Of a stretch of DNA of 41,739 nt, positions 3,539 to 41,739 are shown piece after piece. Position numbers and translations under genes: made by a program. The stretch is from a virus: the IMG/VR virus record IMGVR_UViG_3300011140_000001, positions 1 through 41,739 of that record; one strand, given 5' to 3'. Numbering within the stretch: the stretch's first letter is position 1; each line of letters starts with the position of its first letter. The notes beneath the pieces were generated by a model that had not been told where the DNA came from, did no database searches, and was given only the letters and a program-made list of their open reading frames with translations.

Positions 3539-3555
3539 ATTCAGCCCTCTGTTAG

Positions 3556-24117: not shown

Positions 24118-24165
<48 letters not shown>

Positions 24166-24187
24166 AAATTTGTTGTTAAAAATCAAT

Positions 24188-24225: not shown

Positions 24226-24379
24226 ATTGTCGATAGGTCAGCTATGGATATTCAAAATATCCATATTTCACATTAAAAAACGCTTTATATTTCCGTGCCG
24301 CCGCCAAAAAAGTGGGTGTCATTTGTACATCTTCAATTTTTGTCGGCAGTGCGCCACCATGAAATTTGGAGTGTTAAAA

Positions 24380-25628: not shown

Positions 25629-25754
25629 TCAAAGTGCCTTTACGCATAATGATACTTGAATATTGTTATTGATTGAATGCGCTGTGCATCCTGAAAACAG
25701 AATACACAATAGAGTGATAAAAGTTGCTAGCTTGGTTCTCTTACACAAAAACAC
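25629..25754 (-). CDS. Possible 41-aa prolipoprotein (o-spanin-like position)
   Basis: The GTG at 25752-25754 begins 1 nt after the endolysin stop. MFLCKRTKLATFITLLCILFSGC is a lipoprotein signal with lipobox LFSGC. The mature part is only 19 aa. Confidence 0.3.
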   Translation of the reverse strand: MFLCKRTKLATFITLLCILFSGCTAHSINNNIQVSLCVKAL

Positions 25755-25755
25755 T

Positions 25756-26308: not shown

Positions 26309-26689
26309 CTATTTAAACAGCGCTTTGAAAGACTCTTTAACTTCAGTGATTAATTCACTGATTGTTTTGCCTTTCCATAACCTAATCGCTTGGTACCAGA
26401 TGCCAATTAAAAGCATTCCGAAAACTGCAAAAATCAACATGATGAAACCGTGTGTCATAGGGTGAAGATTCCCCAAATCTTGGTATTCAATAAAAGCAGA
26501 ACCGCCGTATAAGCTAATTGTGATGCTGATTGATAATTTAAGAATTACACTTAAATTAATTTTAATTTTTCCTTCAGTATCAATATCACCGCTAAGCATG
26601 AGAGCAAAAATGCCGCCCATTACCGCCGCCCAGATTTTAATTACCCAAGGTAAAGATTTAATAGTTAATGGGTCGTTCATTTTTGCCAC
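26309..26689 (-). CDS. Holin candidate (three TM segments)
   Basis: 126 aa, three hydrophobic segments and a charged C-terminal tail. It lies immediately upstream of the endolysin. Confidence 0.65.
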   Translation of the reverse strand: MAKMNDPLTIKSLPWVIKIWAAVMGGIFALMLSGDIDTEGKIKINLSVILKLSISITISLYGGSAFIEYQDLGNLHPMTHGFIMLIFAVFGMLLIGIWYQAIRLWKGKTISELITEVKESFKALFK

Positions 26690-26801: not shown

Positions 26802-29093
26802 TTAAAGATCAACCCAGTTCGTCCATGCGCCATTCACATATGATCGACTACTATTCGAACCGGGTGCTGTACTATAAGCGATCTGCTTACCTTCGGTTTC
26901 ATTTGTCTGTATCCATTGAATAGCTCCGTAAAAATAACTGCCGTTCGGACATGAACGACCCGAAACTTCATCTTCGCCAGTAATTGTCACTTGAGCAAAA
27001 CGAACACCACCACTGACAAACTTAAAAGTATCTAAAGATTTATTTATGATAGAGATATCGTTATTACCAATACCATACTTGTAAGATAAATCCCCCCAAG
27101 GTGACCATGCGCCATTCCTGTACTGTGAAACAAACTGTCTAAATCCACCATCTGAATAGAAAAAATCAGTCAATATAAGTAAACCGGTATCTTCAAAATC
27201 GTTTGCCATCGGCAACCATTGCACATTCCCGTAGAAGTCCTTATTTTTGTAAAAATCGGGTAATGATGCGTTTGCTGCTGAATTTGATGTAATTGTCACA
27301 ACTGCGGTTCTAAACCCGCCATTTTTAAAGTGAAAATCTTTAACAGATTTATTTTCAATGAATGTACCATTTGAGCCAATTCCCATTTTTGAAAGCGAAA
27401 GTTCAGCAACGCCTTGCTTAGCTACATCAATTGAAGTTTCCGTAAACCAACTCTGAACATCCCACGTGAAAAAAGGACTTTGGTTAACATATTCTCGATA
27501 TGATTGTTCAATGAAACCGCTGATATAGTTATAAGAGTTTTGATAAGTGTCAATTGGATTTGATTTTTCTGGAGAATACCAGCCAACTGCTTTGCCATCT
27601 GGTAAACGAGCATCGTCACGTTTTAAGTGTTCGCCACTGTATCCATAGCATTTAAAAGATTCACATGCCAACATATAGAAGGAGCATGAGCCATCAATAT
27701 GACCAAATCCAAATACACGTGTACGAGTTAATTTGTTTGTAACCGGATCATCAGCAAATCCTTTATCTGCGTACCACCCAATATTCACATGACGAGCATC
27801 AAAATTGAATACTTTGTGGTTATACATACCGTAAGCAGAGCCGTTAATTGAACGCGGGATATTCGATTTAATACCAATGTCAATATTTGCGGGGAAATAC
27901 CCATTTAAAACCATGAAACATGCTGATCGACGCAAAGATGTGTCCATCGGGTCATCTGTTTTTTCATAACCTAATGCTATACCAATCTGACCAGTTGAGC
28001 CTTTCCCATCCATAGCCAAAGTATCTTTAAATTCAACACGATCACGTAAGATACGGATGTATGTTAAATTATTTACTGTTGATACAAAACTAGCACCATT
28101 CATCGTCACTTCTGTGCGATCTGTTGGCATCCCCCAGTCTGCAGGATTTGGGACTGCATTAAAAACTAGCGTATTATCAATACGACATTTGAATGCTTTC
28201 TCAAAACCATAGCATGTGATTGCATTTGCCAATGCATAATCTATACATTTTTGGGCTCTTGTTGACTGATCGATATTATCATCAGTTACACCAAAGTGCT
28301 CAAACTTCAAATTGTCTTGTAATACCCACGTGCCAGATGCAACATTTGACGCTATGTAAGTACCGTCATTGTCGACTTTGCTTGAAAGTGATTCAAAACG
28401 ATAAATACCACCGCCGAAACCTTTTTTTGTATGACAGTTTGTCCGAACAAGTTGCCCATCTTTACGTACGTTTAACTGACGTAAGGCAGACACGTCTTGA
28501 ACTTCTTGAATATTTTTATCGTTAATCTCTTTTTGATTTTCTACCCCATCTGCTATAAGTTCCGCTAACCAACCTCTTTCAATTACAATATTTGTTATGC
28601 GATTAGCTAGGTCTTTTGAATATGAATCTATTTGATCAAGTGCTAACCCTTGTTCTCTGATTTGATTTTGAATCGCCTGATCTAAAATCTCTAAAGCTTT
28701 ATCGCGAGATAATTTTTCTAATCCCAGTGAATGCGCCCATTCTTGCAAGATAGAAGTTAACTTATCCAGGGAATGTTCGATAGCATCTGGATAGAAGTTA
28801 TCATAGTTAGTTATATCTAACGCCTGATCAACAGGAGTTTCACCTGCAATATAAAATTGAAATCCTACAACTGGTGCATTTAAAAAAGTAATATAACCGC
28901 CCAAGTTATCTTCATTAAGCGTTACCGTATAAAGATTTTCATCAACATTTTCGAAATCGGCCCCTACTTGATGCTTTACAGAAACACCCGTAGCATCCTC
29001 CTGATTAAAAACGCGAAAGGTAAAATCAAAACGTGTATTAGTCCCATTACCTTCGTACAAAGGACTAAGCCGTTCAGTAACAGAAACAGTCAT
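26802..29093 (-). CDS. Tail fibre / tailspike with two tandem C-terminal knob-like domains
   Basis: The start is taken at MTVSVTERLSPLYEGNGTNTRFDFTF (RBS GGTGAG). The central part is beta-rich. Two C-terminal repeats each end in NGAW(S/T)xW(G/V)DL. Confidence 0.8.
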   Translation of the reverse strand: MTVSVTERLSPLYEGNGTNTRFDFTFRVFNQEDATGVSVKHQVGADFENVDENLYTVTLNEDNLGGYITFLNAPVVGFQFYIAGETPVDQALDITNYDNFYPDAIEHSLDKLTSILQEWAHSLGLEKLSRDKALEILDQAIQNQIREQGLALDQIDSYSKDLANRITNIVIERGWLAELIADGVENQKEINDKNIQEVQDVSALRQLNVRKDGQLVRTNCHTKKGFGGGIYRFESLSSKVDNDGTYIASNVASGTWVLQDNLKFEHFGVTDDNIDQSTRAQKCIDYALANAITCYGFEKAFKCRIDNTLVFNAVPNPADWGMPTDRTEVTMNGASFVSTVNNLTYIRILRDRVEFKDTLAMDGKGSTGQIGIALGYEKTDDPMDTSLRRSACFMVLNGYFPANIDIGIKSNIPRSINGSAYGMYNHKVFNFDARHVNIGWYADKGFADDPVTNKLTRTRVFGFGHIDGSCSFYMLACESFKCYGYSGEHLKRDDARLPDGKAVGWYSPEKSNPIDTYQNSYNYISGFIEQSYREYVNQSPFFTWDVQSWFTETSIDVAKQGVAELSLSKMGIGSNGTFIENKSVKDFHFKNGGFRTAVVTITSNSAANASLPDFYKNKDFYGNVQWLPMANDFEDTGLLILTDFFYSDGGFRQFVSQYRNGAWSPWGDLSYKYGIGNNDISIINKSLDTFKFVSGGVRFAQVTITGEDEVSGRSCPNGSYFYGAIQWIQTNETEGKQIAYSTAPGSNSSRSYVNGAWTNWVDL

Positions 29094-29104
29094 AAACTCA
29101 CCAA

Positions 29105-29130
29105 TAAAAAAGGCCGTATTCTCTACAGCC
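29105..29130 (-). terminator. Terminator upstream of the tail fibre gene
   Basis: On the minus strand GGCTGTA gagaa TACGGCC (one G-U pair) is followed by TTTTTTATT. Confidence 0.7.
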
Positions 29131-29193
29131 AATTTTAGGTAAGCTTACAAATAATAGGATGGTTACAGATCGTGCAGTGTCAACAGACACTTA

Positions 29194-29433
29194 TCAAAAT
29201 GCTAAATCCAATGCATCTTCTTCAGTATCCGCGAAGCCTACAACTGTCATCCCTAAATCCTCTACCCCTTCCCAAAGCAATTTGTTGCTTGCTTCATCGT
29301 ATTTGTAAGACTCGACGCCTATAAACATTTCTTTGTTGCTTTTAAAAACAACAAATTCTTTACCACCTTGTCTGACGTTGCCTTTACCTAAATAAAAACC
29401 GTGACCTAGATTTTTAATAACTAAATAATTCAT
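29194..29433 (-). CDS. Hypothetical 79-aa protein with its own control region
   Basis: GGAG lies 8 nt before the ATG. Non-coding spacers flank it on both sides. The C-terminus is acidic. Confidence 0.6.
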   Translation of the reverse strand: MNYLVIKNLGHGFYLGKGNVRQGGKEFVVFKSNKEMFIGVESYKYDEASNKLLWEGVEDLGMTVVGFADTEEDALDLAF

Positions 29434-29549: not shown

Positions 29550-32500
29550 TTACTTATCATCTTCAGATGCATGTTTTCCTGTAATCGTTCCGCGAGTTGC
29601 ATCGTAAATGCTGTCTGGTGCGTCCTTCTTACCTTGAGCTACATCTAGCCAATACCCAAAAGGCTTACCCAAAACAGCAAACGGGATACCAGTAGCAAGC
29701 GTCGCTGTATTCATTAAGTCTTTTGCCGCTTTACTTTGGTTTACTTCTTTGTCCTCATCCAAGGAACGTTTGAAATGTTGAATCAATGAAAGTCCACTTT
29801 CACCCATGCTGAACACTGGTGAAGCGGTATAACGGTCATTCATCACATTATTATCGGTGTTGCTAATCGCAGCGTTTACCACGTTACCCGCATAAGGAAC
29901 GAACGCAGAGAGCATTTTTAATTGTGATAAAGCGAGTCTTGCAGAAAGGTCATCCCACTTTTCGCCGTCTTTATCGTCATCTTGTAAACCGCCTGCAAAT
30001 ATTACACTTAGCAATTCAGACAACATAGAAGGGATTGAAACCATCATCAACGCAACATAGGCCAATCTAGGCGAAGCTTGCACCCATGAACCGTTACTTG
30101 CTTCAAGAGCTAACTTCGCTTCCGAAACAGATGTATTCCAAACCATATTGAACCAGTTGTAAAACATCAAAAACATACGTTTAGCAGGTGTACCGCGTTC
30201 AAGATTTGAAATACCTTCAGGTGACATATCTGTCATGTATTGGCGAATAACCGCATCAGCTGCATGCACTGCGTCATACTGTGTATATCCCTGCTCCGTG
30301 TAATGATTGAATGCAGCTTGCCAAGAAATCATTTCCATTGGTCGTTGTATCGTTGTTTGCAATACATAGGCATGTTTCATGGTGAAATCTTTCACTGTTT
30401 GAATTGCACCCTTTTGGAAAACAATTTCGTCCACGGCATAACGATATTCATCGGCCGCACGATCGAACCGTGTTTTCATGAAGTCAGACATTTCCATAAT
30501 GTTATTTGCCATGTCTTCACGCGTAGCCACAGACGTAAAATAATGTGCCTGTGCTTTCAGCAATTGTTTAGGCGGTACCGCCACTGAAACTTGTGTAAAC
30601 CCTGTGAATTGTTCAATGGCGTTTTTCAAGTTACCTGCCATAATTGCAATACCTGTATTACGACGTAACACACGGAAAATATTATCTAGCAAATGAACCC
30701 CTGAGCTTTCATCAACGGTCTGATTTGCGATTGCTTTTAACCAAGGGTTAAAGACTTGCTTAACACCGAAAGGCATCACACGTTCAATTTCATTTCTGAA
30801 ATCTTTATTTAGTAATAAACGTCCGATTTGTCGAATCTGTAATTCAAGATGAATGTAGCGCAGCTCTTTATCAAGATGACTTGGTAAACGGGACATATCC
30901 AATTCAAGTTGATCGTGATATCGATCCGCACGTGACTTAGTGAAGTTTGCGCCAGTGGTTGCAATATCTAAAGCCTGCAAGTTGTTTTCGGCTAAATTTT
31001 TATCTTGAATGCGGTCTTGCTCGTTTGAGCGCATACGGTCATAAGCAGCCGGCACATAGCCGCCTTCATACTCCCCAAAAGGCGTACTAATTGGTGTACG
31101 TGGTAACTCATCAAAATATCGACCGTTAATTTTCTTATGCGTGATTTGCGCTTGCTCTTTGTACTTATCAAATAGATTCCAAAGTTTTTGGATAGTATCC
31201 ATATCATTTTTGGTAATCACATTTTCATTAATCATACGATTAAAGAATTTATCCCAAGCACTGAAATCAACAGAGCCATCTTCTAGACGTGCGCCCCAAC
31301 CATAACCCAAAACTAAACGCTCTTTGTTGCTCATATTGCCTGTATGCAAAATGGCATGAAGTAAGGACTGTTTACCCACGAATGTAAAATTATTCAATTC
31401 AGGTGCGGCAATTTTTGAGTTATCCAACTTACCGAAACCTTCAAAGGTATCGACCACTTCTTTAAGCATTTTGGCCTTTTCAGTTCTGTATTTAGCCAAC
31501 GCGTCTTGCATAGGGTTGACTAAATAAGTGCGGAATTTACCGCTTGGCCCACCATCTAACCAAGTCACCACCTGGTCAACACGTTTTGCTGAAGCACCTA
31601 ATTCCATGAATTTTGCTTTGAGTTCGGCAGTCTTGTTTTTGCCAAGTAGATTTTGCTGAATTTTCTCAATACTTTTTTTGCCGCTTGATTGCTGTATTAG
31701 TTCTTCACGGACATGTTCACGTTCAAAAGCTTCATTGGTTGTATGCCAAATCTTATTTTCTTTAGATCGATGCCAAAGCGTTTCAACTGCCGACATAACG
31801 GCATTAAATTGCTCAAGCGTTAATTCACGATAGTTTTGGTTTTCAGGTAATGCGCCGATGTTCTGGATTTCAGCATAAGTGGTCGGGTCGTATTTACGAA
31901 TTAACTCTAATTGATGCTCGTAATTTGTAGATTCGCGGCCAAGATCATATTTACCCAAAATGCCACGTGCAGCGGTCACAAAATCAAAGTCACGGTTTTT
32001 AGCCAACTTCTCATTATTGCCAAAAACCTTCTTAACCATATCAAGGTGTTTTTGAATTTGGTCTTTTGCATCGTAACTGTATTTAGTCGCATAGAACTGT
32101 ACCAACTGGTTACGCTTATGGCGTGCGGCTTCTACGGTTTCACCCTTACGGAATGCATCATTAGCCATTCGCCCTAAACGTGCATCATCTTGTGCACGTA
32201 CATGTGGTCGAATATCTTTAATTTTTTGGCGCTGTACAATGTCTTGTGCAACCGCTTTTGCTGCTTCATTCAAAGCAGACTTACGACCAAGTAAACCATT
32301 TAGCGCGGCCATTTCTGCGGACAGCATGCGCGCACGAACATCATTGTGTAATGCTGCTTCAACTGCTTCAACAATACTTTGTTGATCGAAAAATTCAGAA
32401 TATTGCACAGCCATGCGCGCATCCGTGAGCTCATCAATTTTTTGCTTAGGACTTGGTGAATTAAGCAAATCACGAATCAATGCATCACCGCTTTCATAAC

Positions 32501-35500
32501 CGAACATTTCAGCAACAACATCGGGGTTTTCACCTCCACGCTGCGCAAAGCCATATGCACCTTTAGAAATGCTTTGGTAAATGTCACTGTCACGGCCGTA
32601 TTTAGCTTCTATCCAATCGAGTGACAATTTGCCTTTAGTTGTACGGCCTTCTGCAAAGCGTTGCAATAAATCCATGTCTTGCGAATAGTCTAATAATTCA
32701 GGGTCCACTTGATTAGAATATTGATTAACGCCGCGCAACTGGTCCGCAAACTTATCTTCAAGTTCGCTTGTATCAAATTTGCCGTGTTCATCTAAAGTTA
32801 AATACCCTTCTTCGCTAAGCTTCTCAGCCATTGATTCAATCGACAGGCCTTTTACTTTTGATTTTGAAGAACGCACAACAGGCTTGTTGCCAATACCTGA
32901 TTTTGTTTTAGAGGCCTCATCAATACCCCAAGTACTTTCTACTTCATTAGCATCCAGTCCGCCAAACTTGGCAATTGCTTCAAATAAATTATCGCGTTCA
33001 GGTTCAACCTTTGTTGAATCGCGTTTAACAACAGGGTCAAGCGGTTGACGTAGAAATGCCATAGCTTGATATACAGGTTCTTGCGCAATTTCTTTTGCCA
33101 TATCTTCACGAACGGCAGCGCGTTTTTTATCTGCTTCTTTTTGCAATGTTTTCAAATACTTAGACTTTTGTTTTTGGTACCAAACCATATTTCGAAGTGA
33201 TTTTTGCTCTAATGTATTTATAGATAATTCTGTAGCAATTTCATGATCTTGGCGCATTTCGTCATAATCTTTTGGCGAAATTCCAAGGCGCATTGCATCA
33301 TCTTGATGAATTAACATTTCAAGATTTGACGCGGCTTGTGCTTCAGCAATAGCGCTTGATGATGCAAGCATGCGGTCCATTACACCCGTAATATCGTTGT
33401 TCAATTCTGCACGGTCATTGATACCCATAAACTTTTCAATGTTCCGGTACACAGCAATCATGAATTGTCTGAAGCGATTGAAAACTTGCTTTAACGCCGC
33501 GCTTGGTGCTTTACCTGTAAATACATACTGTTCAAAAGTTTCTGCAAATTTTTCATGTACTTCTGTTTTTTCTGCATCGGTGAAAAAGTCCCACTCGCCA
33601 AGATCGGTTGTTTCTGGTGATGCCCACTTCATTACTGTTTCCATGTCAGCACGGACTTGTGCGGGCGCATCGGGACTTAATGCAAGTTCCATATTCATTT
33701 CTAAGAAATGATGCCCAAGCTCATGCACAAATGTAGAGAAGTCTGCATTTTTGCTTAGAACAATTGTTGAACCATCTTGACCAATTGTGAAAGTAATTGA
33801 ACCGCGTGTACCACCATTCGCTTGATTATATTTACGACCGTTTGGTGCACGGTACATGCTTTCAGAAATTTCATAGTCTTTATTGCGACCTTTGTTTTCA
33901 ACAAAACCAAGTTTTTTATAAAAATCTGTAAGTCTTTTTTTATTACTACCAAAATCAGAACTAGGCGTAAGGGCAATAGTTTTATTTTGTGAGTCTGCAT
34001 ATTTAATAATATCTTGCATTGCATTTGTACCAGTGCCTTGATTGCGCATTGCTTCAGGCACAACGATTTTATGCAATGAAAGAACATTACTTGATGGGCT
34101 ACCTTTTAGACCTAATTCAATTCCATATTGTTTTTTAATACTCTTAACAAAATCATCTACTGAGATTGTTTGTTCTGGTGTAGCACTTTGATTAAATGAA
34201 GTGCCCTTATCCGTGGTAGGCTCATCTGCAATACGAATCGGGTAACGGTCAAAAGCATCTTTTGCACTAATACCAAGTTTATCGCCCAAGGTTGAATAGA
34301 AAGCGGAAGTTAATTCCCCCGCAGCACGATTATACTTAGCTGTAAATGTTCCAACTTTAGCCAATTGGTTTTGCACTTCAGTCGCTACTAGCTCCTTAGC
34401 ACTTTCCGCATTTTCAAAACGCGCTTGCTCAGCCATATATGTATTGGCTTCTTGCTGCATTTGCTCAGTGGTTTTTGCAAGATTCTCTTGCGCTTCACGG
34501 TAAGTCGGCATATTAGGGTCTGAACGGACATTCTCAACAAAATCTGTTGGATGCTCAATGACAGACATTGCGGATACAAACTCATCTACGGGTATTTGCA
34601 CAGTGCCATTAAATGTTTCAGCGGTACCCAATTGATCTTGCAGACTCGGCGCACGTTCAAATAAATCGGTCGGCTCAATGTTGCGATCACGCAATAACTG
34701 GTTGAACGTTTGCCCATCTATGTAGACTTCGTTAACTGCACCGTGTTCTTCGATAGCTTGTTTAATAAAGGCTTGACTTGCGGCTTCATCACGCTGTGCC
34801 GTTTTACTCTCTTTATTGTTATCGATAAGATTATTAAGCACAGCAGCAAACGTGGTTGAGCGAACCGCATCTTGTTGCTGATCTGCTCTTAATTGGTCTA
34901 ATGCAAATTGTGCTGTACGCTGATTTTTAACTTTTTCAGCAGACATTATCGCCACTTCAGGCGCAGTGGTTGCAACCTCTAATAAACCCTCAAGGGCCAT
35001 TTCAACAGGGTCTGCCTTTTCTCCAACTGCATCGGCTGCACCTTTTACGGAATACATACCCGCAGCGGATTGAATGACAGCTTGACCACCTACAGTACGC
35101 AAAGGGCCGCCAAAAGTTACAGGCATTAACGCACCGCCTAAGGCTGAATATTTAACTGAACCCCAAGTTTTTGCAGCTGCATAATCAATCTGTTCTTGGC
35201 GAGTTAAGAACTTCTCACGGGCTTCTGCCATATTCTGCCCATATGACACCAAAGCATCTGCCGTGCCTGCACCTAATGCGCCTTGTGCTGCATTCCCTGC
35301 CGCAGTTACACCACGAACTAAATTAGCTGCCTTTTCTAAGTTCATCACCATTGGGGCGTATTTAGCTGTATTTCGGATAAGCGAATTTGATAAAAGCCCA
35401 CCCGCCCCCGCGCCTGCCCAATACCCAGCTAAAGCCGGAGGAGCTTGTTCAATTAAAAATTCACTTACTAGGCCCGCATCGGCATTGCTAACCAACTCTT

Positions 35501-36374
35501 GCGCAGCACCCAATACACCTGCATCATTTGTCTGTGCTGCAAGCTGCGCTTGATAAAGCGCTTGTGACATTTCTTGAGATGGTGCCGCTCTGTTTTTAAC
35601 ACGTGTTGCTAAATTAAGTAGGCTATCGTTTCCAGTGGCCGCATTGATTACTGCACCTTCAGTTTGACCAATTGCAGCTACAGCACGAATAGCCGCATTT
35701 ACGTATCGATTACCTTGCTCCTGTGGGTTAGAAGGTTCAGCGCTTGCAGTATGCTCCATCCAATAGACTTGGTTTTCATAATATTTTTTAAACCGTTCGG
35801 CAGACATTACACCCGCATTTTTCTTAATACGGTCATAGTTTTCTTTGAACACTTGCTCCGACGTTTGAGGAACTAATGTTGTGCTTAATGTATCTAATAA
35901 ATTAGGGTTAACATTTGGCTTGATCTGTTTTTGCGGTTCTTCGTAAACACCAAGTTCTTTTAATCGCTTTTTTTGTTCTGGTGAAGTGCCTTTATTTAAG
36001 ACTTGTTGGATGTCTTGATAAGTAATATTTTCATGCGGTTTATTAAGGCTTGAACCGAGTAACGAAACTTTATCACTAATGCCTTTTAGATTTTCAAAGT
36101 CATCAAGTGAAACCGCCGCTTGACTTGGGTTAAGAGCATATTTACCCAAGACAGGATCACTAGCAATAACTTCATTCACTCGTTTTTGTGTGTTGATTTC
36201 GTCAGCAACAGATACGACTTGCTCAGGACTTTCTGTTATTTTGCTGTAATCTAGCCCCAATGAGCGCGCAGCTTTTTGTGCACGGGCTTCAGTGTCCGCA
36301 ATTTGCGTTGGATTTTTGCCTTGGTTTAGTTCAAATAATTGACCAATTGTAAGATTTGCATTTTGATCAGACAT
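29550..36374 (-). CDS. Giant internal virion / ejection protein (T7 gp16 position) with embedded GNAT-like and HExxH metallopeptidase-like modules
   Basis: 2274 aa. GNAT motif VVPEAMRNQGTGTNAMQDII…FYKKLGF (residues ~737-828). HELGH at residues 884-888. Gly/Ala-rich hydrophobic region at ~220-480. Hydrophobic helices near the C-terminus. Confidence 0.8.
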   Translation of the reverse strand: MSDQNANLTIGQLFELNQGKNPTQIADTEARAQKAARSLGLDYSKITESPEQVVSVADEINTQKRVNEVIASDPVLGKYALNPSQAAVSLDDFENLKGISDKVSLLGSSLNKPHENITYQDIQQVLNKGTSPEQKKRLKELGVYEEPQKQIKPNVNPNLLDTLSTTLVPQTSEQVFKENYDRIKKNAGVMSAERFKKYYENQVYWMEHTASAEPSNPQEQGNRYVNAAIRAVAAIGQTEGAVINAATGNDSLLNLATRVKNRAAPSQEMSQALYQAQLAAQTNDAGVLGAAQELVSNADAGLVSEFLIEQAPPALAGYWAGAGAGGLLSNSLIRNTAKYAPMVMNLEKAANLVRGVTAAGNAAQGALGAGTADALVSYGQNMAEAREKFLTRQEQIDYAAAKTWGSVKYSALGGALMPVTFGGPLRTVGGQAVIQSAAGMYSVKGAADAVGEKADPVEMALEGLLEVATTAPEVAIMSAEKVKNQRTAQFALDQLRADQQQDAVRSTTFAAVLNNLIDNNKESKTAQRDEAASQAFIKQAIEEHGAVNEVYIDGQTFNQLLRDRNIEPTDLFERAPSLQDQLGTAETFNGTVQIPVDEFVSAMSVIEHPTDFVENVRSDPNMPTYREAQENLAKTTEQMQQEANTYMAEQARFENAESAKELVATEVQNQLAKVGTFTAKYNRAAGELTSAFYSTLGDKLGISAKDAFDRYPIRIADEPTTDKGTSFNQSATPEQTISVDDFVKSIKKQYGIELGLKGSPSSNVLSLHKIVVPEAMRNQGTGTNAMQDIIKYADSQNKTIALTPSSDFGSNKKRLTDFYKKLGFVENKGRNKDYEISESMYRAPNGRKYNQANGGTRGSITFTIGQDGSTIVLSKNADFSTFVHELGHHFLEMNMELALSPDAPAQVRADMETVMKWASPETTDLGEWDFFTDAEKTEVHEKFAETFEQYVFTGKAPSAALKQVFNRFRQFMIAVYRNIEKFMGINDRAELNNDITGVMDRMLASSSAIAEAQAASNLEMLIHQDDAMRLGISPKDYDEMRQDHEIATELSINTLEQKSLRNMVWYQKQKSKYLKTLQKEADKKRAAVREDMAKEIAQEPVYQAMAFLRQPLDPVVKRDSTKVEPERDNLFEAIAKFGGLDANEVESTWGIDEASKTKSGIGNKPVVRSSKSKVKGLSIESMAEKLSEEGYLTLDEHGKFDTSELEDKFADQLRGVNQYSNQVDPELLDYSQDMDLLQRFAEGRTTKGKLSLDWIEAKYGRDSDIYQSISKGAYGFAQRGGENPDVVAEMFGYESGDALIRDLLNSPSPKQKIDELTDARMAVQYSEFFDQQSIVEAVEAALHNDVRARMLSAEMAALNGLLGRKSALNEAAKAVAQDIVQRQKIKDIRPHVRAQDDARLGRMANDAFRKGETVEAARHKRNQLVQFYATKYSYDAKDQIQKHLDMVKKVFGNNEKLAKNRDFDFVTAARGILGKYDLGRESTNYEHQLELIRKYDPTTYAEIQNIGALPENQNYRELTLEQFNAVMSAVETLWHRSKENKIWHTTNEAFEREHVREELIQQSSGKKSIEKIQQNLLGKNKTAELKAKFMELGASAKRVDQVVTWLDGGPSGKFRTYLVNPMQDALAKYRTEKAKMLKEVVDTFEGFGKLDNSKIAAPELNNFTFVGKQSLLHAILHTGNMSNKERLVLGYGWGARLEDGSVDFSAWDKFFNRMINENVITKNDMDTIQKLWNLFDKYKEQAQITHKKINGRYFDELPRTPISTPFGEYEGGYVPAAYDRMRSNEQDRIQDKNLAENNLQALDIATTGANFTKSRADRYHDQLELDMSRLPSHLDKELRYIHLELQIRQIGRLLLNKDFRNEIERVMPFGVKQVFNPWLKAIANQTVDESSGVHLLDNIFRVLRRNTGIAIMAGNLKNAIEQFTGFTQVSVAVPPKQLLKAQAHYFTSVATREDMANNIMEMSDFMKTRFDRAADEYRYAVDEIVFQKGAIQTVKDFTMKHAYVLQTTIQRPMEMISWQAAFNHYTEQGYTQYDAVHAADAVIRQYMTDMSPEGISNLERGTPAKRMFLMFYNWFNMVWNTSVSEAKLALEASNGSWVQASPRLAYVALMMVSIPSMLSELLSVIFAGGLQDDDKDGEKWDDLSARLALSQLKMLSAFVPYAGNVVNAAISNTDNNVMNDRYTASPVFSMGESGLSLIQHFKRSLDEDKEVNQSKAAKDLMNTATLATGIPFAVLGKPFGYWLDVAQGKKDAPDSIYDATRGTITGKHASEDDK

Positions 36375-36452
36375 AATAAAAGCACTTAAGACTACGGTTA
36401 TTTGTAATCTTAAATGCTGTTATTGCTTAGACTGCCTTTTGCTGTTGACAGC

Positions 36453-37148
36453 TTAACTATTCAGTCCGCCCATCAAACTATCGCAAACCTGTTTTTGGTT
36501 TTCGGAATAGTCCATTCTAAATAAGTTACTTGTTCCGCCAGAACCACTACTTGACTGCCAAATCCCATACACTGCTTTTTTATTAGGCGAAGTTAAAAGA
36601 TAAGCTTCTTCAAAGTTCAATGCACCGAAATTTTTTTCACACACTTTTTTAAATTTAATATTTGCTTTAGTTAAAGACTTAAATGGGGAAAATTCACAAT
36701 TATCAAAATTTTCACCAAAACAGATATTTTCATTTTCACGTGATACCGTGGCAGGGTATAGAGAAATTGTGTTTGGACCAAATTTACCAACGGTACCCTC
36801 CATCATTACTGACCAAGGAAGTTCATAAGTACGATGGTCTACAATAGTGCTTTTCTTGCCAAGAACATTTACACGTGCAACACCCTTTCTACTTGAATGA
36901 AAAGTTCCATCTTCTAACTTTTTCTCAACATAAAAACTATCTAGCCAGATAATAGATTTATCATTAGAACGAAAATCCCAATATAGCTTTTCTTCATTTT
37001 TGTTGGGCATTAATTTATAAACTAATTGACCAAATTCCTGTTGAGGTAATTTTTTTAAAGTAACTGGGTATGGTTGTAAAGCAGCTTCAGCCGAAAAAAC
37101 TTGTAAAGGTAGAGCTAAAGTGCAGACCATTAAAAAACTTCGTTTCAC
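36453..37148 (-). CDS. Secreted (Sec signal peptide) Cys-containing protein of unknown function
   Basis: The GTG start overlaps the upstream stop (TAGTG) and has AGAAGAGG upstream. The signal is MKRSFLMVCTLALPLQVFSA / EAA. There are four Cys in the mature part. Confidence 0.65.
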   Translation of the reverse strand: MKRSFLMVCTLALPLQVFSAEAALQPYPVTLKKLPQQEFGQLVYKLMPNKNEEKLYWDFRSNDKSIIWLDSFYVEKKLEDGTFHSSRKGVARVNVLGKKSTIVDHRTYELPWSVMMEGTVGKFGPNTISLYPATVSRENENICFGENFDNCEFSPFKSLTKANIKFKKVCEKNFGALNFEEAYLLTSPNKKAVYGIWQSSSGSGGTSNLFRMDYSENQKQVCDSLMGGLNS

Positions 37149-39400
37149 TAGAAACCTCTTCTCATCATTGAATAATAAGCATTGATATATTCAGCATCCG
37201 TTACGTTATTCGGATTTCTACCCTGCTTTTTAAATATGTTATCAATTTTTGTTCTCATTGAGTCAGTAATATCGCTCTTACTTTTAACCTGATTATAAAC
37301 GCGATTCAATTCAACCTTATCATCAAAGAAAGGTCTTGAAGTGGTAATTTGAACTTGACGATTAACATTCTTCAATACAACACGATTCACTTGATCCCAA
37401 GTTAAATGACTCCCGTTTTTCGCTTCAGCTTCTAATAACGTTTGCATTAAATCTGTTTTAACAGCGTTATAGTGTTCTAACTGCTTTTTATCAGTAGTGC
37501 TAGTAATGCCGATCATTCCCAAATATGGTTTTAAAGCACTTGATATAGTAGAGTCATTTACCAAAAATGTTTCTTCTTCTTTTTTCTTGGCGTCCTTTAA
37601 ACCGTTTACTTCAGCATAAACCTTGGTTACTTCTTTATAATCAGTAGGCGATAATTTATCAGCATATTGATGTAGTACTGATTGCGGTTTACCTTTCAAT
37701 AATTCATCTTTATTCAGCATTATCATACTTAAAGTAATTGGGTCGGTTTTAACATCTTTTTCGTATGTTGCCTTACTTACTGACTTTAAACTATTAATTT
37801 GATTTGGTTCTAGGGCTGTGATATTTGCAGCGGGGATTTGCTCAAATGTGTATTGCCCAGAAATAATTCCATTGTACAAACTGCTATAGCTTTGATCTTG
37901 TTTATCCTTCTTGGCTTTATCGAGCCCACTATAATATCGATCAGTTGCTACTAAAGCTTTTTGCTTTACTTCAACAGGAGCGTTGCTATTCCAAATTTCG
38001 TTGTATGCAGATTCACGGGATTTAGCAGGTTGATTTGCATATTTGCCAAAATCATTTGTTAGCCATTTATCAATTCGTTGAATATAGTTTCGAGTTTCTG
38101 AAGCAGGTGGTTGCCCCCCTTTGAGAACTGCTGAAGCTGCATTAGCACCACCGTTGTAATAAGCAGCAATAACAATTGGGTCTTTAGTTTTATATTTTTT
38201 ACTAATCCAGTCTATAAAATCTAAAGAAGCGTCGATCGTATCTGCAGGATTATTAATATCTCGTTTACCACCGTTACTATATTCTTTCCAAGTATCAGGC
38301 ATAAATTGCATTACTGATTTTGCACCCTTCGGGGAGACTGCATCATTATTTGATTTTTCACCAGATAATCGAATAGCAAGTAAAAGCGGTGCTGCCCATT
38401 CCATGCCTTTTTCTTTTGCAGCATGAACGGTGTAAACATCTAAACGCTGATCATTGTATTTAATGTTTTTCATTTGATCAGGTGTAAGATTTTTAAGCTC
38501 TTGAGCAATTTTTGCAGATGCTTGAGGCGGAACATTTAAAGCAGGGTTACTACCTTCCTGCGTACCTGTTGTTGCGATATTAACTAATGCTTCAACTTGT
38601 TGGTCTTCTAACTTCTGATGAATGCGCTGATCTACTCTAAAGCTATCCGCTAATGATATTTCATCTTTATATTTATTTTTATACGCGAGAGCCGCTTTTA
38701 AATCTCCGTTTTCTACAAAAGCACTGATATTGGTAATGTGAGCACCAGAAACGTTTTTAAGATAAATATTATCTGCCTCTGTTGCTGCCTTGCCTTCCAA
38801 ATTCATGAGCTTACCTAAAGAAGCTTTTAGGTTAGCCCGACTCTCATCAATTTTATTGAAGTCACCAGGGTTATCATTTATCTCACGAATAAATCGATCC
38901 GCTGAAGAAGAATAAACGCTTTGTTGGTAAGTATCGTTTTCACGTACAAAATAGTTTTGTAATGAGCCTTTAAATTGCACTGCATCTTGAGCGGCCATCT
39001 CTTTAAATAATGAACGTTGGCGGTTGTTTCCAAGAGTGCTTACGATTTCTCCCACACCATCTTGGTATGCTTTAGCATAGTAATCTACAAAGCCGCCGCC
39101 GTTTCCATCATCAAAGCTAACAACATCCACGCCTTTTTTATTTATGTAACCATCGACTTCGTTGTTCTGTAGGTGTTGTTTTAGTTCTGCGAGTTTATTT
39201 TGCGCATCAATAACACGCACACGATCCGCTTCATCTTGATATTCTTGGTAAGCTTTTAATCCTGAGTTTAGCGCACCTACTAAACCATCTGTTCTGTTAC
39301 CGACTAAACTTGCAGCTCCACTTGGAGATACACCGCCAGAAACTTGAACACTAGGCACACTGTTATCTGAAACTTGACGATTAAATTGTGGTATACGCAT
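37148..39400 (-). CDS. Internal virion protein with a lytic transglycosylase (SLT) domain (T7 gp15 position)
   Basis: LSGEKS…SPKGAKSVMQFMPDTW…AAYYNGG at residues ~340-420 is the SLT signature. Confidence 0.85.
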   Translation of the reverse strand: MRIPQFNRQVSDNSVPSVQVSGGVSPSGAASLVGNRTDGLVGALNSGLKAYQEYQDEADRVRVIDAQNKLAELKQHLQNNEVDGYINKKGVDVVSFDDGNGGGFVDYYAKAYQDGVGEIVSTLGNNRQRSLFKEMAAQDAVQFKGSLQNYFVRENDTYQQSVYSSSADRFIREINDNPGDFNKIDESRANLKASLGKLMNLEGKAATEADNIYLKNVSGAHITNISAFVENGDLKAALAYKNKYKDEISLADSFRVDQRIHQKLEDQQVEALVNIATTGTQEGSNPALNVPPQASAKIAQELKNLTPDQMKNIKYNDQRLDVYTVHAAKEKGMEWAAPLLLAIRLSGEKSNNDAVSPKGAKSVMQFMPDTWKEYSNGGKRDINNPADTIDASLDFIDWISKKYKTKDPIVIAAYYNGGANAASAVLKGGQPPASETRNYIQRIDKWLTNDFGKYANQPAKSRESAYNEIWNSNAPVEVKQKALVATDRYYSGLDKAKKDKQDQSYSSLYNGIISGQYTFEQIPAANITALEPNQINSLKSVSKATYEKDVKTDPITLSMIMLNKDELLKGKPQSVLHQYADKLSPTDYKEVTKVYAEVNGLKDAKKKEEETFLVNDSTISSALKPYLGMIGITSTTDKKQLEHYNAVKTDLMQTLLEAEAKNGSHLTWDQVNRVVLKNVNRQVQITTSRPFFDDKVELNRVYNQVKSKSDITDSMRTKIDNIFKKQGRNPNNVTDAEYINAYYSMMRRGF

Positions 39401-40023
39401 TAACTAGCTCCGAACCAATTCCAATTATAATTTTGCCAAGATGCGCCTTGGGTACCATTGCCTGCGTTATAGAGACTTGATGCAAAGTCAGAACCGCTGC
39501 CCAACGAAGAACTTTCCGCTTGACCACCCAAACTACCTTTGCCCATGCTTGACCCATATGCTGACGCAGCATTCCCTGCTAAGCTTAAAAGCGTGCTTGT
39601 TAATGGTCTAATTGATTTTGCGGCAACACGATAATTTTCGGCTTGATTTCTAAAGTTTGTTTCTTGAACCTTATGGCCCCATGACTGCAAAGCGGCATTG
39701 TACTTAATCGAATCGATATCACCTTGCGCAAGCATTTCAGTAGATGCAAGTAAATCGACAGCCGAACCTTGAGTTACATCAATCCCATTTTCAGCGAGCG
39801 CGTTTATTTGGCTTGATTTAAATGCCGAAACATTACGTTGGTAATCGGTTACAGCATTAGTTCCATCTTCAATAGCTTGCCGCGCTTGATTATCCGAGAG
39901 CGTCGCATTAGATAAAGCAAGTTGTTCTTGCTGTTGAAGCGCCTTTTTTTGAGCTTTTAATTTGCCATAAGTAGATAGCGCCTCTACCCCCTTTACAGCA
40001 GCAAATGCATATGGATTTATCAT
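39400..40023 (-). CDS. Internal virion protein (T7 gp14 position)
   Basis: 207 aa, helical and Ala/Gln-rich, with a Gly/Ser-rich tail. The assignment rests on position. Confidence 0.5.
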   Translation of the reverse strand: MINPYAFAAVKGVEALSTYGKLKAQKKALQQQEQLALSNATLSDNQARQAIEDGTNAVTDYQRNVSAFKSSQINALAENGIDVTQGSAVDLLASTEMLAQGDIDSIKYNAALQSWGHKVQETNFRNQAENYRVAAKSIRPLTSTLLSLAGNAASAYGSSMGKGSLGGQAESSSLGSGSDFASSLYNAGNGTQGASWQNYNWNWFGAS

Positions 40024-40490
40024 GCTGCCCCCATTACAAACGGATGAAATAATTCATTGTTATTGCCGTAAGCTTCAGGGGCTTTTAGATCAAATCCTAA
40101 TTTTCTAAGAAAGCGAATTGCCTTTGCATTTTTCACATATACGTGATTAATGAGCACATCGTATTCCGACTTGATCTCATTCAAGATATTTTTAGATTGT
40201 TTATAAAACTCGATCGGATATTGCTTAATAAAATTGGTGCCAAGCAGCCAAGGGCAACCAACATTGCCAAGCAAGCTCGACATTCCGACACCACAAATGA
40301 AAAGCAACTTTCCATTAACTACTACGGTCCAAGCATCACTTGAATGCTTAATAGACATTTTAATCATCCAATGATAGTTATCATTGAAATATGCTTTCAT
40401 CTCATCTTTATCGGCTTCACGCAGGTTTTCAACAAGAATACGAATATCGCGCTCAGTCGGCTTACGAATTTCAATATTGTTTTTTCTCAT
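40020..40490 (-). CDS. Internal virion protein A-like (T7 gp13 position), possibly GNAT-like fold
   Basis: 156 aa. The C-terminal part, VYVKNAKAIRFLRKLGF, resembles the GNAT C-terminal signature. The assignment rests on position. Confidence 0.45.
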   Translation of the reverse strand: MRKNNIEIRKPTERDIRILVENLREADKDEMKAYFNDNYHWMIKMSIKHSSDAWTVVVNGKLLFICGVGMSSLLGNVGCPWLLGTNFIKQYPIEFYKQSKNILNEIKSEYDVLINHVYVKNAKAIRFLRKLGFDLKAPEAYGNNNELFHPFVMGAA

Positions 40491-41739
40491 TTGTATTCAA
40501 CCTCTAATGCCAATAACTTCATAGGTAAAGGTTTATCATGTTTTACAGTAATTTGAATGTCTCTTTCGTAAGTGCTGTCAACTGGTATTTCTACAAAGCC
40601 TGATATTAAATTTAATGGCGCTCCGTATGGTTCAAGATTACGGGGTTTGTATTCATCAATATCTGTAGGATTTGCAATCTCTTGATTCGCACCGACAAGA
40701 ATATTTTGTGTTTCACGAACTCTTAAAAACACTTTATTCACGACTTTCGGCTTAGTCGGACTGCTTTGTTCTCTATAAATCGGCAAGGTCTGCATTTCTG
40801 CTACATATGGCAAGCCAACTAAAACATTTGATAGTTTACGAGTAAGTTTAATTTTTCCATCTGTAACGACCGCTTCAGGCTTTACACCGCCATCAGCAAA
40901 TATAGAAACAGTTTGCCCTTCTAACCAATCCAATCCATTTAAAACATCCGTTGGTTCGCCTTTATATTGGATACTGCTGTCCAGATAACATTTATCTTTC
41001 ATGTCTAGTGGTTGGCGTGTGAGCATCCGTTCAATGGTGTAAAAACCATTACGCTCAATGAACGCATATAGAACAGATTGATCATCTTCAGGTATCTCAG
41101 CTACAGACAGAAATTTGCCGTCTGTGTGATGCTCTGCCCAAGCCCATACTTGTTGTTGCGGCTCGTAGGTTAATGAAAGCAACGCCCCATCATCTCGCAC
41201 AAAATATATAATATTCAATGGGTTGCGTATTGCAGCACAGTCTACAATTTTATGCCCATCAAAAAGTTGTGGACACATAATCGATAAATCTAGTGTCTGA
41301 TAAAAAGAAGCATTGTAACCACTTGCTAAAGATGCTTCATGCACATGGCCTGTTTGATCAGAAGCAAATACCGCTGCGCCATCCACTTCTACGGGTGTAA
41401 CATCATTCGCACCTGTACTGTATTGTTTATTCATGTTTACGCTTGCTGCGGTCATAGCCCCATCAGACGAAAGCTTCCACAAAGCGCCGCTAGTTAAAAC
41501 GAGTAAATCATTCAAAGTAATTAAGTGCTTAACGCCGTTACCATCACGGGCAGCAAACCGTATTTGGATTGAGTCAGTATCTTGCGTAGGAATGTGATAT
41601 CCGAAATTGTCGTCTGTTGCCGTGCGTGACATACGTATCCATTGCGGCGATTTGTACCCACCACCATAGACTTTACGTTGCCCATGGTAAGCAACTGCGG
41701 TGGGGTTAAATTCGAAAGGATTTCGGATTAATGGCGGGG
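40487..41739 (-). CDS. Tail tubular protein B-like, C-terminal part of the gene that starts at 861 (the unique part ends at 41662)
   Basis: The frame is open from 41662 (GGT GGG TAC AAA TCG…) down to the stop at 40487. The Met at 41632 in the ORF track is internal. Confidence 0.8.
   Translation of the reverse strand, partial: PPLIRNPFEFNPTAVAYHGQRKVYGGGYKSPQWIRMSRTATDDNFGYHIPTQDTDSIQIRFAARDGNGVKHLITLNDLLVLTSGALWKLSSDGAMTAASVNMNKQYSTGANDVTPVEVDGAAVFASDQTGHVHEASLASGYNASFYQTLDLSIMCPQLFDGHKIVDCAAIRNPLNIIYFVRDDGALLSLTYEPQQQVWAWAEHHTDGKFLSVAEIPEDDQSVLYAFIERNGFYTIERMLTRQPLDMKDKCYLDSSIQYKGEPTDVLNGLDWLEGQTVSIFADGGVKPEAVVTDGKIKLTRKLSNVLVGLPYVAEMQTLPIYREQSSPTKPKVVNKVFLRVRETQNILVGANQEIANPTDIDEYKPRNLEPYGAPLNLISGFVEIPVDSTYERDIQITVKHDKPLPMKLLALEVEYK
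41663..41739. repeat. Right copy of the 77-nt terminal overlap (identical to 1-77)
   Basis: Same 77-mer as 1-77. It lies inside an open reading frame. Confidence 0.97.

What the first reader, a model, noticed from the sequence alone, without database searches (positions are those of the whole stretch)
36453..37148. A Sec-exported, Cys-containing protein is encoded in the middle of the ejectosome operon
The 231-aa ORF is translationally coupled to the transglycosylase gene (TAGTG overlap, AGAAGAGG RBS). It begins with a classical signal peptide, MKRSFLMVCTLALPLQVFSA then EAA. The mature part has four Cys, consistent with periplasmic disulfides. Virion-internal proteins are assembled in the cytoplasm, so an exported protein at this position is anomalous. 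Untested possibilities are a periplasmic inhibitor or regulator of the phage transglycosylase or endolysin, an exclusion factor against incoming ejectosomes, or a lysis accessory.
Basis: partly seen in the sequence, partly recalled or inferred. Interest (0 to 1): 0.65.

Follow-up and report, generated by a model that had tools for sequence, protein, structure and literature searches.

The report
Exported cargo gene inside ejection-protein operon
A temperate Acinetobacter phage carries, wedged between two of its DNA-ejection protein genes, an extra gene for a secreted periplasmic protein of unknown function. The same gene family also travels on other phages, plasmids and chromosomes, so it is accessory cargo and not a part of the injection machine.

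Summary
Window 36453-37148 (minus strand) is a real 231-aa gene. Its GTG start overlaps the TAG of the 750-aa SLT (gp15-like) gene by one base, and an AGAAGAGG Shine-Dalgarno site lies upstream. It has a Sec-type signal peptide and four Cys in the mature part; these four are (nearly) invariant across the family.

It is not an ejectosome component. Relatives Ab9 and Bordetella BPP-1 run straight from the SLT gene into the giant gp16-like gene, so ORF231 is an insertion. In close relatives this slot is hypervariable. It holds a 56%-identical allele between 92-94%-identical flanks, a transmembrane coiled-coil protein, a polytopic membrane protein, or a DUF6804 membrane protein.

Homologues also occur in unrelated siphovirus-type prophages, a phage-plasmid, a non-phage plasmid and chromosomal loci outside prophages. 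A profile search finds 317 clusters. In most of them the domain follows a signal peptide, lipobox or membrane anchor. Some are fused to DnaJ, kinase, PG-binding or Imm_superinfect modules.

The AlphaFold model is confident (pLDDT 93), yet it has no PDB or BFVD neighbour. No Pfam, NCBIfam or PADLOC family matches.

Best reading: a moron-like periplasmic binding protein, most plausibly an envelope-level exclusion factor. That function is inferred, not shown.

The parts
36453..37148 (-). ORF231: 231-aa precursor of an exported protein of about 209-211 aa (pI about 8.6, about 24 kDa). PHROG 24752, no Pfam family.
37083..37148 (-). Signal peptide, codons 1-22 (MKRSFLMVCTLALPLQVFSAEA). Predicted SPase I cleavage after A20 (FSA|E) or A22 (AEA|A).
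   Evidence: Read directly from the sequence; hydrophobicity; conserved character in homologues
37155..37162 (-). Shine-Dalgarno-like AGAAGAGG, six bases before the GTG start and inside the last codons of the SLT gene.
37146..37150 (-). TAGTG: the stop of the SLT gene overlaps the GTG start of ORF231 by one base, an arrangement compatible with translational coupling.
36696..36722 (-). Codons for the family-invariant loop C143-FGENFDN-C151, a probable disulfide-closed loop.
   Evidence: pairing inferred from the secondary structure
36483..36641 (-). Span from the C170 codon (36639-36641, in a beta-strand) to the C222 codon (36483-36485, in the C-terminal helix), the probable second disulfide.
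   Evidence: inferred pairing
36381..36418 (-). Perfect 15-bp hairpin followed by UUUUAUUAUG, between the ORF231 stop and the giant gene's ATG. It is terminator-like but belongs to the conserved backbone and marks the 3' boundary of the variable slot.
   Evidence: (dG -28.9 kcal/mol, z -5.9)
37148..39400 (-). Upstream neighbour: 750-aa gp15-like internal virion protein with an SLT lytic transglycosylase domain (residues 335-423).
29550..36374 (-). Downstream neighbour: 2274-aa gp16-like giant protein (LPD22 plus a GNAT-like region), homologous to BPP-1 Bbp10.

Best explanation
ORF231 is a cargo gene of the moron type, not a working part of the ejectosome. It sits in a recombination-prone slot between the gp15-like SLT gene and the gp16-like giant gene of a BPP-1-like temperate Acinetobacter podophage.

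It is read from the late structural transcript, translationally coupled to the SLT gene. Its product is sent through Sec, cleaved by signal peptidase I, and folds in the periplasm into a compact beta-rich domain held by two disulfides.

The domain belongs to a large, unnamed family of extracytoplasmic modules. These also serve as the periplasmic part of membrane-anchored DnaJ, Ser/Thr-kinase, zinc-ribbon and Imm_superinfect proteins. It is therefore most likely a binding module, not an enzyme.

The function I think most likely: in the infected or lysogenic cell it binds an envelope component, or a component of an incoming phage's DNA-delivery apparatus, and hinders entry of competing phages. 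That would be superinfection exclusion at the periplasmic step, as done by T4 Spackle or P22 SieA through unrelated proteins.

Shown: gene, export signals, family-wide Cys conservation, status as an insertion, slot variability, spread across mobile elements. Inferred: periplasmic location, disulfides, binding role, exclusion function, time of expression.

My confidence is about 0.85 that it is exported accessory cargo and not an ejectosome part, and about 0.35 for the exclusion mechanism. The figure given below is for the mechanism.
For: Insertion: in Acinetobacter phage Ab9 and Bordetella BPP-1 the SLT gene is followed directly by the giant gene.

Variable slot:
- L011 has flanks 92-94% identical to the window, but an ORF231 allele of only 56% identity plus an extra 95-aa gene.
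- L013 and L015 carry only a 105- or 112-aa transmembrane coiled-coil protein. L014 carries a 111-aa polytopic membrane protein.
- L053 carries a DUF6804 membrane protein plus an ORF231 homologue.
- Contigs of public runs match the window up to 36451-36456 and again from 37143-37166, then differ in between.
- All slot occupants are envelope-targeted proteins.

Spread (call numbers in brackets):
- two different Acinetobacter siphovirus-type prophages, just upstream of the tape measure gene (12, 18)
- a Snodgrassella prophage, between head-completion and tail genes (49)
- a phage-plasmid and a non-phage plasmid carrying relaxase and MobC genes (89-91)
- chromosomal loci outside prophages (15, 48)

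Export: signal peptides, lipoboxes or upstream membrane anchors are found across the family. Fusion partners place the domain outside the membrane, and include Imm_superinfect twice and PG_binding_1 once. Four Cys are invariant or nearly so.

Composition: ORF231 has the lowest GC of the operon, 33.9% against 39.7% for the window.

Precedents: a periplasmic or inner-membrane phage protein that blocks the entry apparatus of incoming phages is described for Spackle (PMC7677548) and SieA (PMC10461980).
Against: - No experiment or transcript data bear on this gene. No RNA-seq run of a lysogen with this sequence was found.
- No promoter of its own was detected upstream. The one-base overlap suggests late expression, whereas most prophage exclusion genes are expressed from the prophage.
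- PADLOC, Pfam and NCBIfam give nothing.
- The family also occurs in chromosomal loci and as the sensor part of signalling proteins, so its ancestral role is not anti-phage.
- The downstream hairpin belongs to the backbone, not to the cassette.
Confidence: 0.35

Rival explanations
1. Host-directed cargo unrelated to phage exclusion. The secreted domain binds a periplasmic or envelope ligand and changes the physiology or fitness of the carrier cell (envelope stress, adhesion, nutrient or signal binding). This would be lysogenic conversion in the broad sense.
For: The family occurs on a non-phage plasmid and in chromosomal loci with no phage genes nearby. It also forms the periplasmic part of kinase, DnaJ, Sel1 and PDZ proteins, as sensor or binding domains do.
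Against: In at least five phage lineages the gene sits inside late structural operons, not near the lysogeny module. In the window it is coupled to a late gene. No promoter of its own was found.
Confidence: 0.25
2. Lysis or late-infection accessory. Made late and exported, it acts on peptidoglycan or the outer membrane at the end of the cycle. It could tune the endolysin or SLT, help outer-membrane disruption, or sense superinfection as T4 RI does.
For: Late-operon position and coupling. The same slot in relatives holds transmembrane coiled-coil proteins with C-terminal Cys, and these give weak Rz-like spanin matches (phrog_739, E 4e-5 and 3e-3). The window's lysis cassette shows a holin-like gene and an endolysin but no recognisable spanin pair. 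One family member is fused to a peptidoglycan-binding domain.
Against: ORF231 has none of the spanin hallmarks: no lipobox, no membrane anchor after cleavage, no coiled coil. It lies 10 kb from the lysis cassette. Most homologues are outside any lysis context. The spanin matches cover only the membrane segment and are weak.
Confidence: 0.15
3. One reading: a dedicated periplasmic inhibitor of the phage's own SLT domain, analogous to Spackle or Ivy.
For: The gene is adjacent and coupled to the SLT gene. In the A. seifertii and Snodgrassella siphovirus-type prophages that carry homologues, the tape measure protein also has an SLT domain. There is an invariant disulfide-closed loop, CFGxxxxxC. 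Ivy is recalled from memory to use such a loop.
Against: The A. baumannii siphovirus-type prophage with the commonest homologue (82 member sequences) has a tape measure protein without an SLT domain. Plasmid and chromosomal homologues have no SLT neighbour. There is no sequence or fold similarity to Spackle, Ivy, MliC/PliC or PliG. Relatives with a nearly identical SLT protein carry quite different slot genes.
Confidence: 0.12
4. It is after all a virion or ejection protein whose N-terminal hydrophobic segment is a membrane-insertion element and not a signal peptide.
For: Position among the ejection protein genes. Its size is close to that of P22 gp7-class ejection proteins (229-230 aa in the table of PMC8954989).
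Against: It is absent from Ab9 and BPP-1, which have the same gp13-16 set. The gp14-, gp15- and gp16-like roles are already filled. Homologues lie outside phages and serve as periplasmic domains of cellular proteins. Invariant Cys pairs are typical of oxidised extracytoplasmic proteins.
Confidence: 0.05

Closest known systems
Phage morons (extra genes between conserved neighbours, as defined for HK97/HK022; lambda lom and bor as exported examples; recalled from established knowledge)
   Same: An extra gene lies between two genes that are adjacent in related phages. It has a lower GC than its neighbours and encodes an envelope-targeted product. It is mobile between unrelated phages, plasmids and chromosomes, and the slot holds alternative cargo in close relatives.
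   Different: No promoter of its own was found. It is coupled to the upstream late gene by a one-base overlap. The downstream hairpin belongs to the backbone. Expression from the prophage is unknown.
T4 Spackle (Sp), periplasmic inhibitor of the gp5 tail lysozyme (PMC7677548)
   Same: A phage-encoded protein with a signal peptide that acts in the periplasm. It is the model for how an exported protein could disarm the wall-cutting enzyme of an incoming phage.
   Different: There is no sequence or fold relation. ORF231 is larger and beta-rich. Spackle is an early gene of a virulent phage, whereas ORF231 sits in a late operon of a temperate phage. Inhibition is untested.
P22 SieA, superinfection exclusion aimed at ejection proteins gp16 and gp20 (PMC10461980)
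   Same: A temperate-podophage accessory protein of the envelope whose target is the trans-periplasmic DNA conduit. SieA types are very divergent, much as this slot is variable.
   Different: [quoted passage not shown] ORF231 is a soluble exported protein inside it.
PsbP / Mog1 / DcrB-like alpha-beta sandwich proteins
   Same: These are the best, though weak, Foldseek neighbours: CyanoP 2lnj with TM 0.35-0.41 and DcrB 6e8a with TM 0.28-0.38. DcrB is a periplasmic lipoprotein.
   Different: E-values are 0.04-0.5, far from significant, and no sequence similarity exists. At most this is a distant topological likeness.
BPP-1-like (Rauchvirus-type) structural module: Bbp12, Bbp11 (SLT) and Bbp10
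   Same: The window's gp14-like, SLT and giant genes are arranged like bbp12-bbp11-bbp10. The giant protein is 26% identical to Bbp10 over 71% of its length.
   Different: BPP-1 has nothing between bbp11 and bbp10, which overlap. The window has ORF231 there.

Membership tests
Sec / signal peptidase I secreted proteins | Positively charged n-region, a hydrophobic h-region of 10-15 residues, and small residues at -3/-1 | tested here: met
   MKR, then SFLMVCTLALPLQVF, then SAEA|A. It is the only hydrophobic peak in the protein. SignalP was not available, so this rests on the rules and on the homologues.
Sec / signal peptidase I secreted proteins | The signal is conserved in kind across homologues | tested here: met
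   All full-length close homologues have one. 129 of 204 family proteins have a signal peptide or lipobox, 35 have an upstream membrane anchor, and most of the rest are weak signals or truncated calls.
Sec / signal peptidase I secreted proteins | Export and cleavage demonstrated | not testable with these tools
   Needs PhoA or Bla fusions, fractionation and N-terminal sequencing.
Moron (accessory insertion in a phage operon) | The gene lies between two genes that are adjacent in related phages | tested here: met
   Ab9 has the SLT gene, a 38-base gap, then the giant gene. In BPP-1, bbp11 overlaps bbp10.
Moron (accessory insertion in a phage operon) | Own promoter and terminator | tested here: not met
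   There is no sigma-70-like site upstream on the minus strand. The hairpin at 36381-36418 is present whatever gene fills the slot.
Moron (accessory insertion in a phage operon) | Composition differs from the neighbours | tested here: inconclusive
   GC is 33.9% (GC3 23%) against 36.7% for the SLT gene, 41.4% for the giant gene and 39.7% for the window. It is the lowest in the operon, but the difference is modest.
Moron (accessory insertion in a phage operon) | Expressed from the prophage | tested here: inconclusive
   No RNA run of a lysogen with this allele was found. In one RNA run of a related prophage, contigs that run into the alternative slot sequence have depth 47-130 against 13-36 for the flanks. 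That is contig depth only and concerns another gene.
T7-type ejection / internal virion proteins (gp14, gp15, gp16) | Present throughout the phage lineage, with homology to a gp14/15/16 class | tested here: not met
   It is absent from Ab9, BPP-1, L013, L014 and L015. There is no Pfam or PHROG match to an internal virion family.
Lysozyme / lytic transglycosylase inhibitors (Spackle, Ivy, MliC/PliC, PliG) | Sequence or fold similarity to one of these families | tested here: not met
   Pfam gives none. A PDB profile search gives none at E up to 10. Foldseek against the PDB, run on both models, lists none of them.
Lysozyme / lytic transglycosylase inhibitors (Spackle, Ivy, MliC/PliC, PliG) | Binds and inhibits a muramidase or transglycosylase | not testable with these tools
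   Needs a biochemical assay with the SLT domain.
Spanins (i-, o- or u-spanin) | An N-terminal membrane anchor with a coiled coil, or a lipobox lipoprotein, or a lipobox plus a C-terminal membrane segment | tested here: not met
   The signal is SPase I type. LMVC at residues 6-9 is not a lipobox and Cys9 is not conserved. The fold is globular and beta-rich, with no second hydrophobic segment.
Known anti-phage defence proteins (PADLOC-DB) | Match to a defence-system model | tested here: not met
   No family at E up to 1.
PsbP / Mog1 / DcrB-like fold | Significant structural alignment | tested here: inconclusive
   Best TM is 0.35-0.41 with probability 0.6-0.8, but E is 0.04-0.5.

The most novel reading that the evidence does not exclude
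The ORF231 family may be a new class of periplasmic 'gatekeeper' with a previously unseen fold. Phages and plasmids would have captured it repeatedly. It would recognise the wall-cutting or channel-forming proteins that an incoming phage releases into the periplasm. The slot between the SLT and giant genes of these podophages would then be a dedicated, rapidly exchanging arsenal of envelope-level exclusion proteins placed next to the genes for their own targets.
Probability: 0.2. Interest if true: 0.7.

Novelty: new member of a known kind. Interest (0 to 1): 0.42.

Why it matters
Envelope-level blocks to phage DNA entry are few and poorly understood; Spackle, Imm, SieA and the recently described HXS system are the known examples. 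They matter for phage therapy against Acinetobacter baumannii, where prophages are common.

This finding gives a concrete and easily testable candidate. It also points to a defined hot spot in a widespread prophage type, where alternative envelope proteins can be compared side by side.

Independently of function, the work defines an unannotated extracytoplasmic domain family. It comprises more than 300 clusters at 50% identity and has four conserved Cys and a confident model without a structural neighbour. The family deserves a name and a solved structure.

If the protein proves to be a plain host-fitness cargo gene, the result is ordinary.

Tried and rejected
- tblastn of ORF231 against 50,697 phage records gave no match. 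The family is known only from prophages, which explains the PHROG hit.
- Pfam, NCBIfam, PADLOC and a PDB sequence profile gave nothing usable. The single NCBIfam line (Drt2, E 0.13, 11 bits) is noise.
- Foldseek on two models against the PDB, and on one against BFVD, gave no match below E 0.018. I do not take the PsbP/DcrB likeness as a finding.
- The second word-indexed search, run with the 87-sequence alignment, added only six proteins.
- RNA evidence for expression: no run holds this allele. Contigs came from related prophages with other slot genes.
- I considered a two-gene module of ORF231 with a 312-aa neighbour, seen in L008 and L053. I rejected it because the two 312-aa proteins are unrelated.
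- I considered the hairpin as the moron's own terminator. I rejected that because it is conserved with every slot content.
- I considered a lipoprotein reading with Cys9. I rejected it because there is no lipobox and the Cys is not conserved.
- An obligatory link with SLT-bearing injection proteins fails for the A. baumannii siphovirus-type prophage.

Full report
**1. The observation**

The window carries, on the minus strand, a run of structural genes. These are:
- the 3' part of a nozzle or tail gene (40487-41632)
- a T7 gp13-like gene (40020-40490)
- a gp14-like internal virion gene (39400-40023, phrog_418)
- a 750-aa protein with an SLT lytic transglycosylase domain (37148-39400)
- the ORF in question (36453-37148, 231 aa)
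- a 2274-aa giant protein with LPD22 and GNAT-like regions (29550-36374)

The junction reads AGAAGAGG-TTTC-TAG-TG on the coding strand. The SLT gene's stop and the ORF's GTG share one base, and a strong Shine-Dalgarno-like site lies six bases upstream.

The product begins MKRSFLMVCTLALPLQVFSAEAA. This is the only hydrophobic segment in the protein. Four Cys (143, 151, 170, 222) lie in the mature part. Only the strand was left unstated, and AEA|A is at least as good a cleavage site as FSA|E.

**2. It is a real gene with a confident fold but no name**

- Fifteen proteins of 46-98% identity, all named ones from Acinetobacter, were found.
- Their signal peptides differ in sequence but keep the K/R, hydrophobic and small-residue pattern. 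The four Cys are conserved.
- PHROG 24752 (function unknown) matches at E 1e-84.
- Pfam, NCBIfam, PADLOC and PDB sequences give nothing.
- AlphaFold2 gives pLDDT 83.7 and pTM 0.81 for the precursor, and pLDDT 93.4 and pTM 0.90 for the mature part. The model is a beta-rich domain with short helices at both ends.
- Foldseek finds no neighbour in the PDB or BFVD below E 0.018. The best topological likeness, PsbP/DcrB-type sandwiches at TM 0.35-0.41, is not significant.
- From the secondary structure, C143 and C151 would close a loop, and C170 (strand) and C222 (C-terminal helix) would pin the helix to the sheet. This pairing is inferred; I had no coordinates to measure.

**3. The phage**

The window encodes a tyrosine integrase (24170-25393), an endolysin (25756-26304), a holin-like membrane protein (26309-26689) and a tailspike (26802-29132).
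- Its head genes resemble Acinetobacter phage 4316.
- Its giant protein resembles Acinetobacter phage Ab9 (42% identity) and Bordetella BPP-1 Bbp10 (26%).

It is therefore a temperate podophage with a BPP-1-like ejection module.

**4. ORF231 is an insertion**

In Ab9 the SLT gene ('endolysin', locus 2477-4798) is followed after 38 bases by the giant gene. In BPP-1, bbp11 and bbp10 overlap. Both phages have the same order of internal virion genes and no gene in between. The gp14-, gp15- and gp16-like roles are already filled in the window. ORF231 is thus not needed to build this type of ejectosome.

**5. The slot is a hot spot for envelope proteins**

Among close relatives, with SLT proteins 59-95% identical, the slot contents are as follows.

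| Locus | Slot content |
|---|---|
| L004, L006, L054 | an ORF231 homologue alone |
| L011 | a 56%-identical homologue plus a 95-aa protein with a membrane anchor, coiled coil and C-terminal CxxxxxC; its flanks are 92-94% identical to the window |
| L053 | a 312-aa DUF6804 membrane protein plus a homologue |
| L013, L015 | only a 105- or 112-aa anchor and coiled-coil protein |
| L014 | a 111-aa polytopic membrane protein |

Contigs from public runs match the window up to 36451-36456, the ORF's stop. They match again from 37143-37166, just past its start. Between these points they carry other sequence.

The 3' boundary is a perfect 15-bp hairpin followed by a U-run and the giant gene's ATG (dG -28.9 kcal/mol, z -5.9). 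This hairpin is conserved whatever fills the slot. The 5' boundary is the conserved ...NAYYSMMRRGF end of the SLT protein. These conserved flanks would favour cassette exchange by homologous recombination; that is inference.

ORF231 has the lowest GC of the operon.

**6. The family is not phage-specific**

Homologues were found in these settings.

| Setting | Identity to ORF231 |
|---|---|
| A. baumannii siphovirus-type prophage, in a cluster of small genes (kinase, TonB_C, YdcA, DUF4236) before the tape measure gene | 53%; 82 member sequences |
| A. seifertii siphovirus-type prophage, before a YedD-like lipoprotein and an SLT-bearing tape measure gene | 55% |
| Snodgrassella alvi prophage, between head-completion and tail genes | 30% |
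| Chromosomal loci without phage genes in Acinetobacter sp. M5A5_2a and Vreelandella titanicae | 60% and 24% |
| Ten Acinetobacter plasmid records, including a non-phage plasmid (pAS74-3, with relaxase and MobC genes) and a phage-plasmid | 36-42% |

A profile search of 1.84 billion representatives found 317 clusters at E below 1e-3, and 228 below 1e-10.

Across 87 single-domain members the invariant or near-invariant positions are W57, W68, R87, G89, R92, G97, E109, W112, G124, C143-F-G, C151, F153, C170, G202-S-G-G and C222.

Longer members place the domain after a membrane segment. They carry DnaJ (3), protein kinase (2), Sel1 (2), Imm_superinfect (2), PDZ, MORN, PG_binding_1 or zinc-ribbon modules.

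By a simple hydrophobicity and lipobox rule, 164 of 204 proteins have a signal peptide, lipobox or upstream anchor. Most of the remainder are weak signals or truncated gene calls.

The domain is therefore an extracytoplasmic module. Its use as the outer part of signalling proteins suggests that it binds something.

**7. What it most likely does**

The shown facts are these. It is an exported, disulfide-type periplasmic protein. It is accessory cargo and highly mobile between elements. It sits in a slot that holds only envelope proteins, next to the genes for the phage's own envelope-crossing machine.

The most economical function is interference with other phages at the envelope. Precedents are T4 Spackle, a periplasmic inhibitor of the gp5 lysozyme (PMC7677548), and P22 SieA, which targets ejection proteins gp16 and gp20 (PMC10461980). 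I put this at about one in three.

Two points weigh against it. No promoter of its own was found, and the gene is coupled to a late gene. No transcript data for this allele exist. In an RNA run of a related prophage, contigs that run into the alternative slot sequence reach depth 47-130 against 13-36 for the flanks. That hints at separate regulation of slot genes, but it is contig depth and concerns a different gene.

**8. Rivals**

- **General host-fitness cargo (0.25).** This fits the plasmid and chromosomal copies.
- **Lysis or late-infection accessory (0.15).** It draws on the late position, on weak Rz-like matches of the alternative slot proteins, and on the lack of a recognisable spanin pair beside the endolysin. 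ORF231 itself has no spanin feature.
- **Dedicated inhibitor of the phage's own SLT (0.12).** Two SLT-bearing tape measure proteins next to homologues favour it. The SLT-less tape measure of the commonest homologue's prophage argues against it, as does the fact that nearly identical SLT proteins go with unrelated slot genes.
- **True virion protein (0.05).** This is unlikely for the reasons in sections 4 and 6.

**9. Novelty and verdict**

An exported accessory gene in a phage structural operon is a known kind of thing. The particular family is undescribed and has no structural neighbour. The hypervariable, envelope-only slot inside an ejection-protein operon is a neat and testable arrangement.

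The 'anomaly' is explained by insertion of mobile cargo. Interest is moderate at 0.42. It would rise to about 0.7 if an exclusion activity aimed at incoming ejectosomes were shown.

Noticed in passing
window 24115-24170, next to the integrase gene at 24170-25393 (+): Contigs from several runs match from 24115 onward and are preceded by GCGGGAATAGCTCAGTTGGTAGAGC, the 5' part of a tRNA gene. A phage-collection hit annotates tRNA-Gly at this spot. The window thus seems to carry the 3' part of a tRNA-Gly as its attachment site (attP-like). ARAGORN finds no complete tRNA in the window.
   Followed up: partly
window 29194-29433 (-), between the giant gene and the tailspike gene: A 79-aa ORF (phrog_35618, function unknown). 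Upstream lie a TTGACT...TATCTA promoter-like site and an inverted repeat, CCGTAATTT...AAATTACGG, that brackets it. This looks like a second, classical moron with its own regulated promoter.
   Followed up: partly
L011 1494-1781; L013 6255-6572; L015 6284-6622 (the same slot in related prophages): A family of 95-112-aa proteins with an N-terminal membrane anchor, a coiled coil and a C-terminal C-x5-C motif (CLIKNICI, CLHKNICL, CQVNNICV). They fill the slot instead of, or beside, the ORF231 homologue. Matches to Rz-like spanin phrog_739 are weak. No homologue exists in the window.
   Followed up: partly
window 25629-25826 (-), overlapping the 3' end of the endolysin gene: A small out-of-frame ORF ends in a lipoprotein-like signal (KRTKLATFITLLCILFSG|C) with a very short mature part. 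It may be an o-spanin-like remnant or chance. No i-spanin was recognised beside the holin-like and endolysin genes.
   Followed up: no
window 29550-36374 (-), giant protein, residues about 730-845: The giant gp16-like protein is mosaic. Relatives align at 67-83% on both sides of a central segment that does not align. Where the window has a GNAT-like region, they carry other polyvalent-protein domains (ART-PolyVal in L006, MuF_C in L004).
   Followed up: partly
P0002 compared with window ORF231, residues 1-22: A homologue that is 95% identical over the mature part has an unrelated signal peptide (MRKISLGLLFLISSVCAVSA). A recombination breakpoint therefore lies just inside the gene's 5' end.
   Followed up: no
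L002 6499-9969 and L003 (A. baumannii siphovirus-type prophage): A cluster of small non-structural genes lies between the tail tube and tape measure genes: a protein kinase, a TonB_C protein, YdcA, DUF4236 and the ORF231 homologue. This is a second cargo hot spot rich in exported proteins.
   Followed up: no
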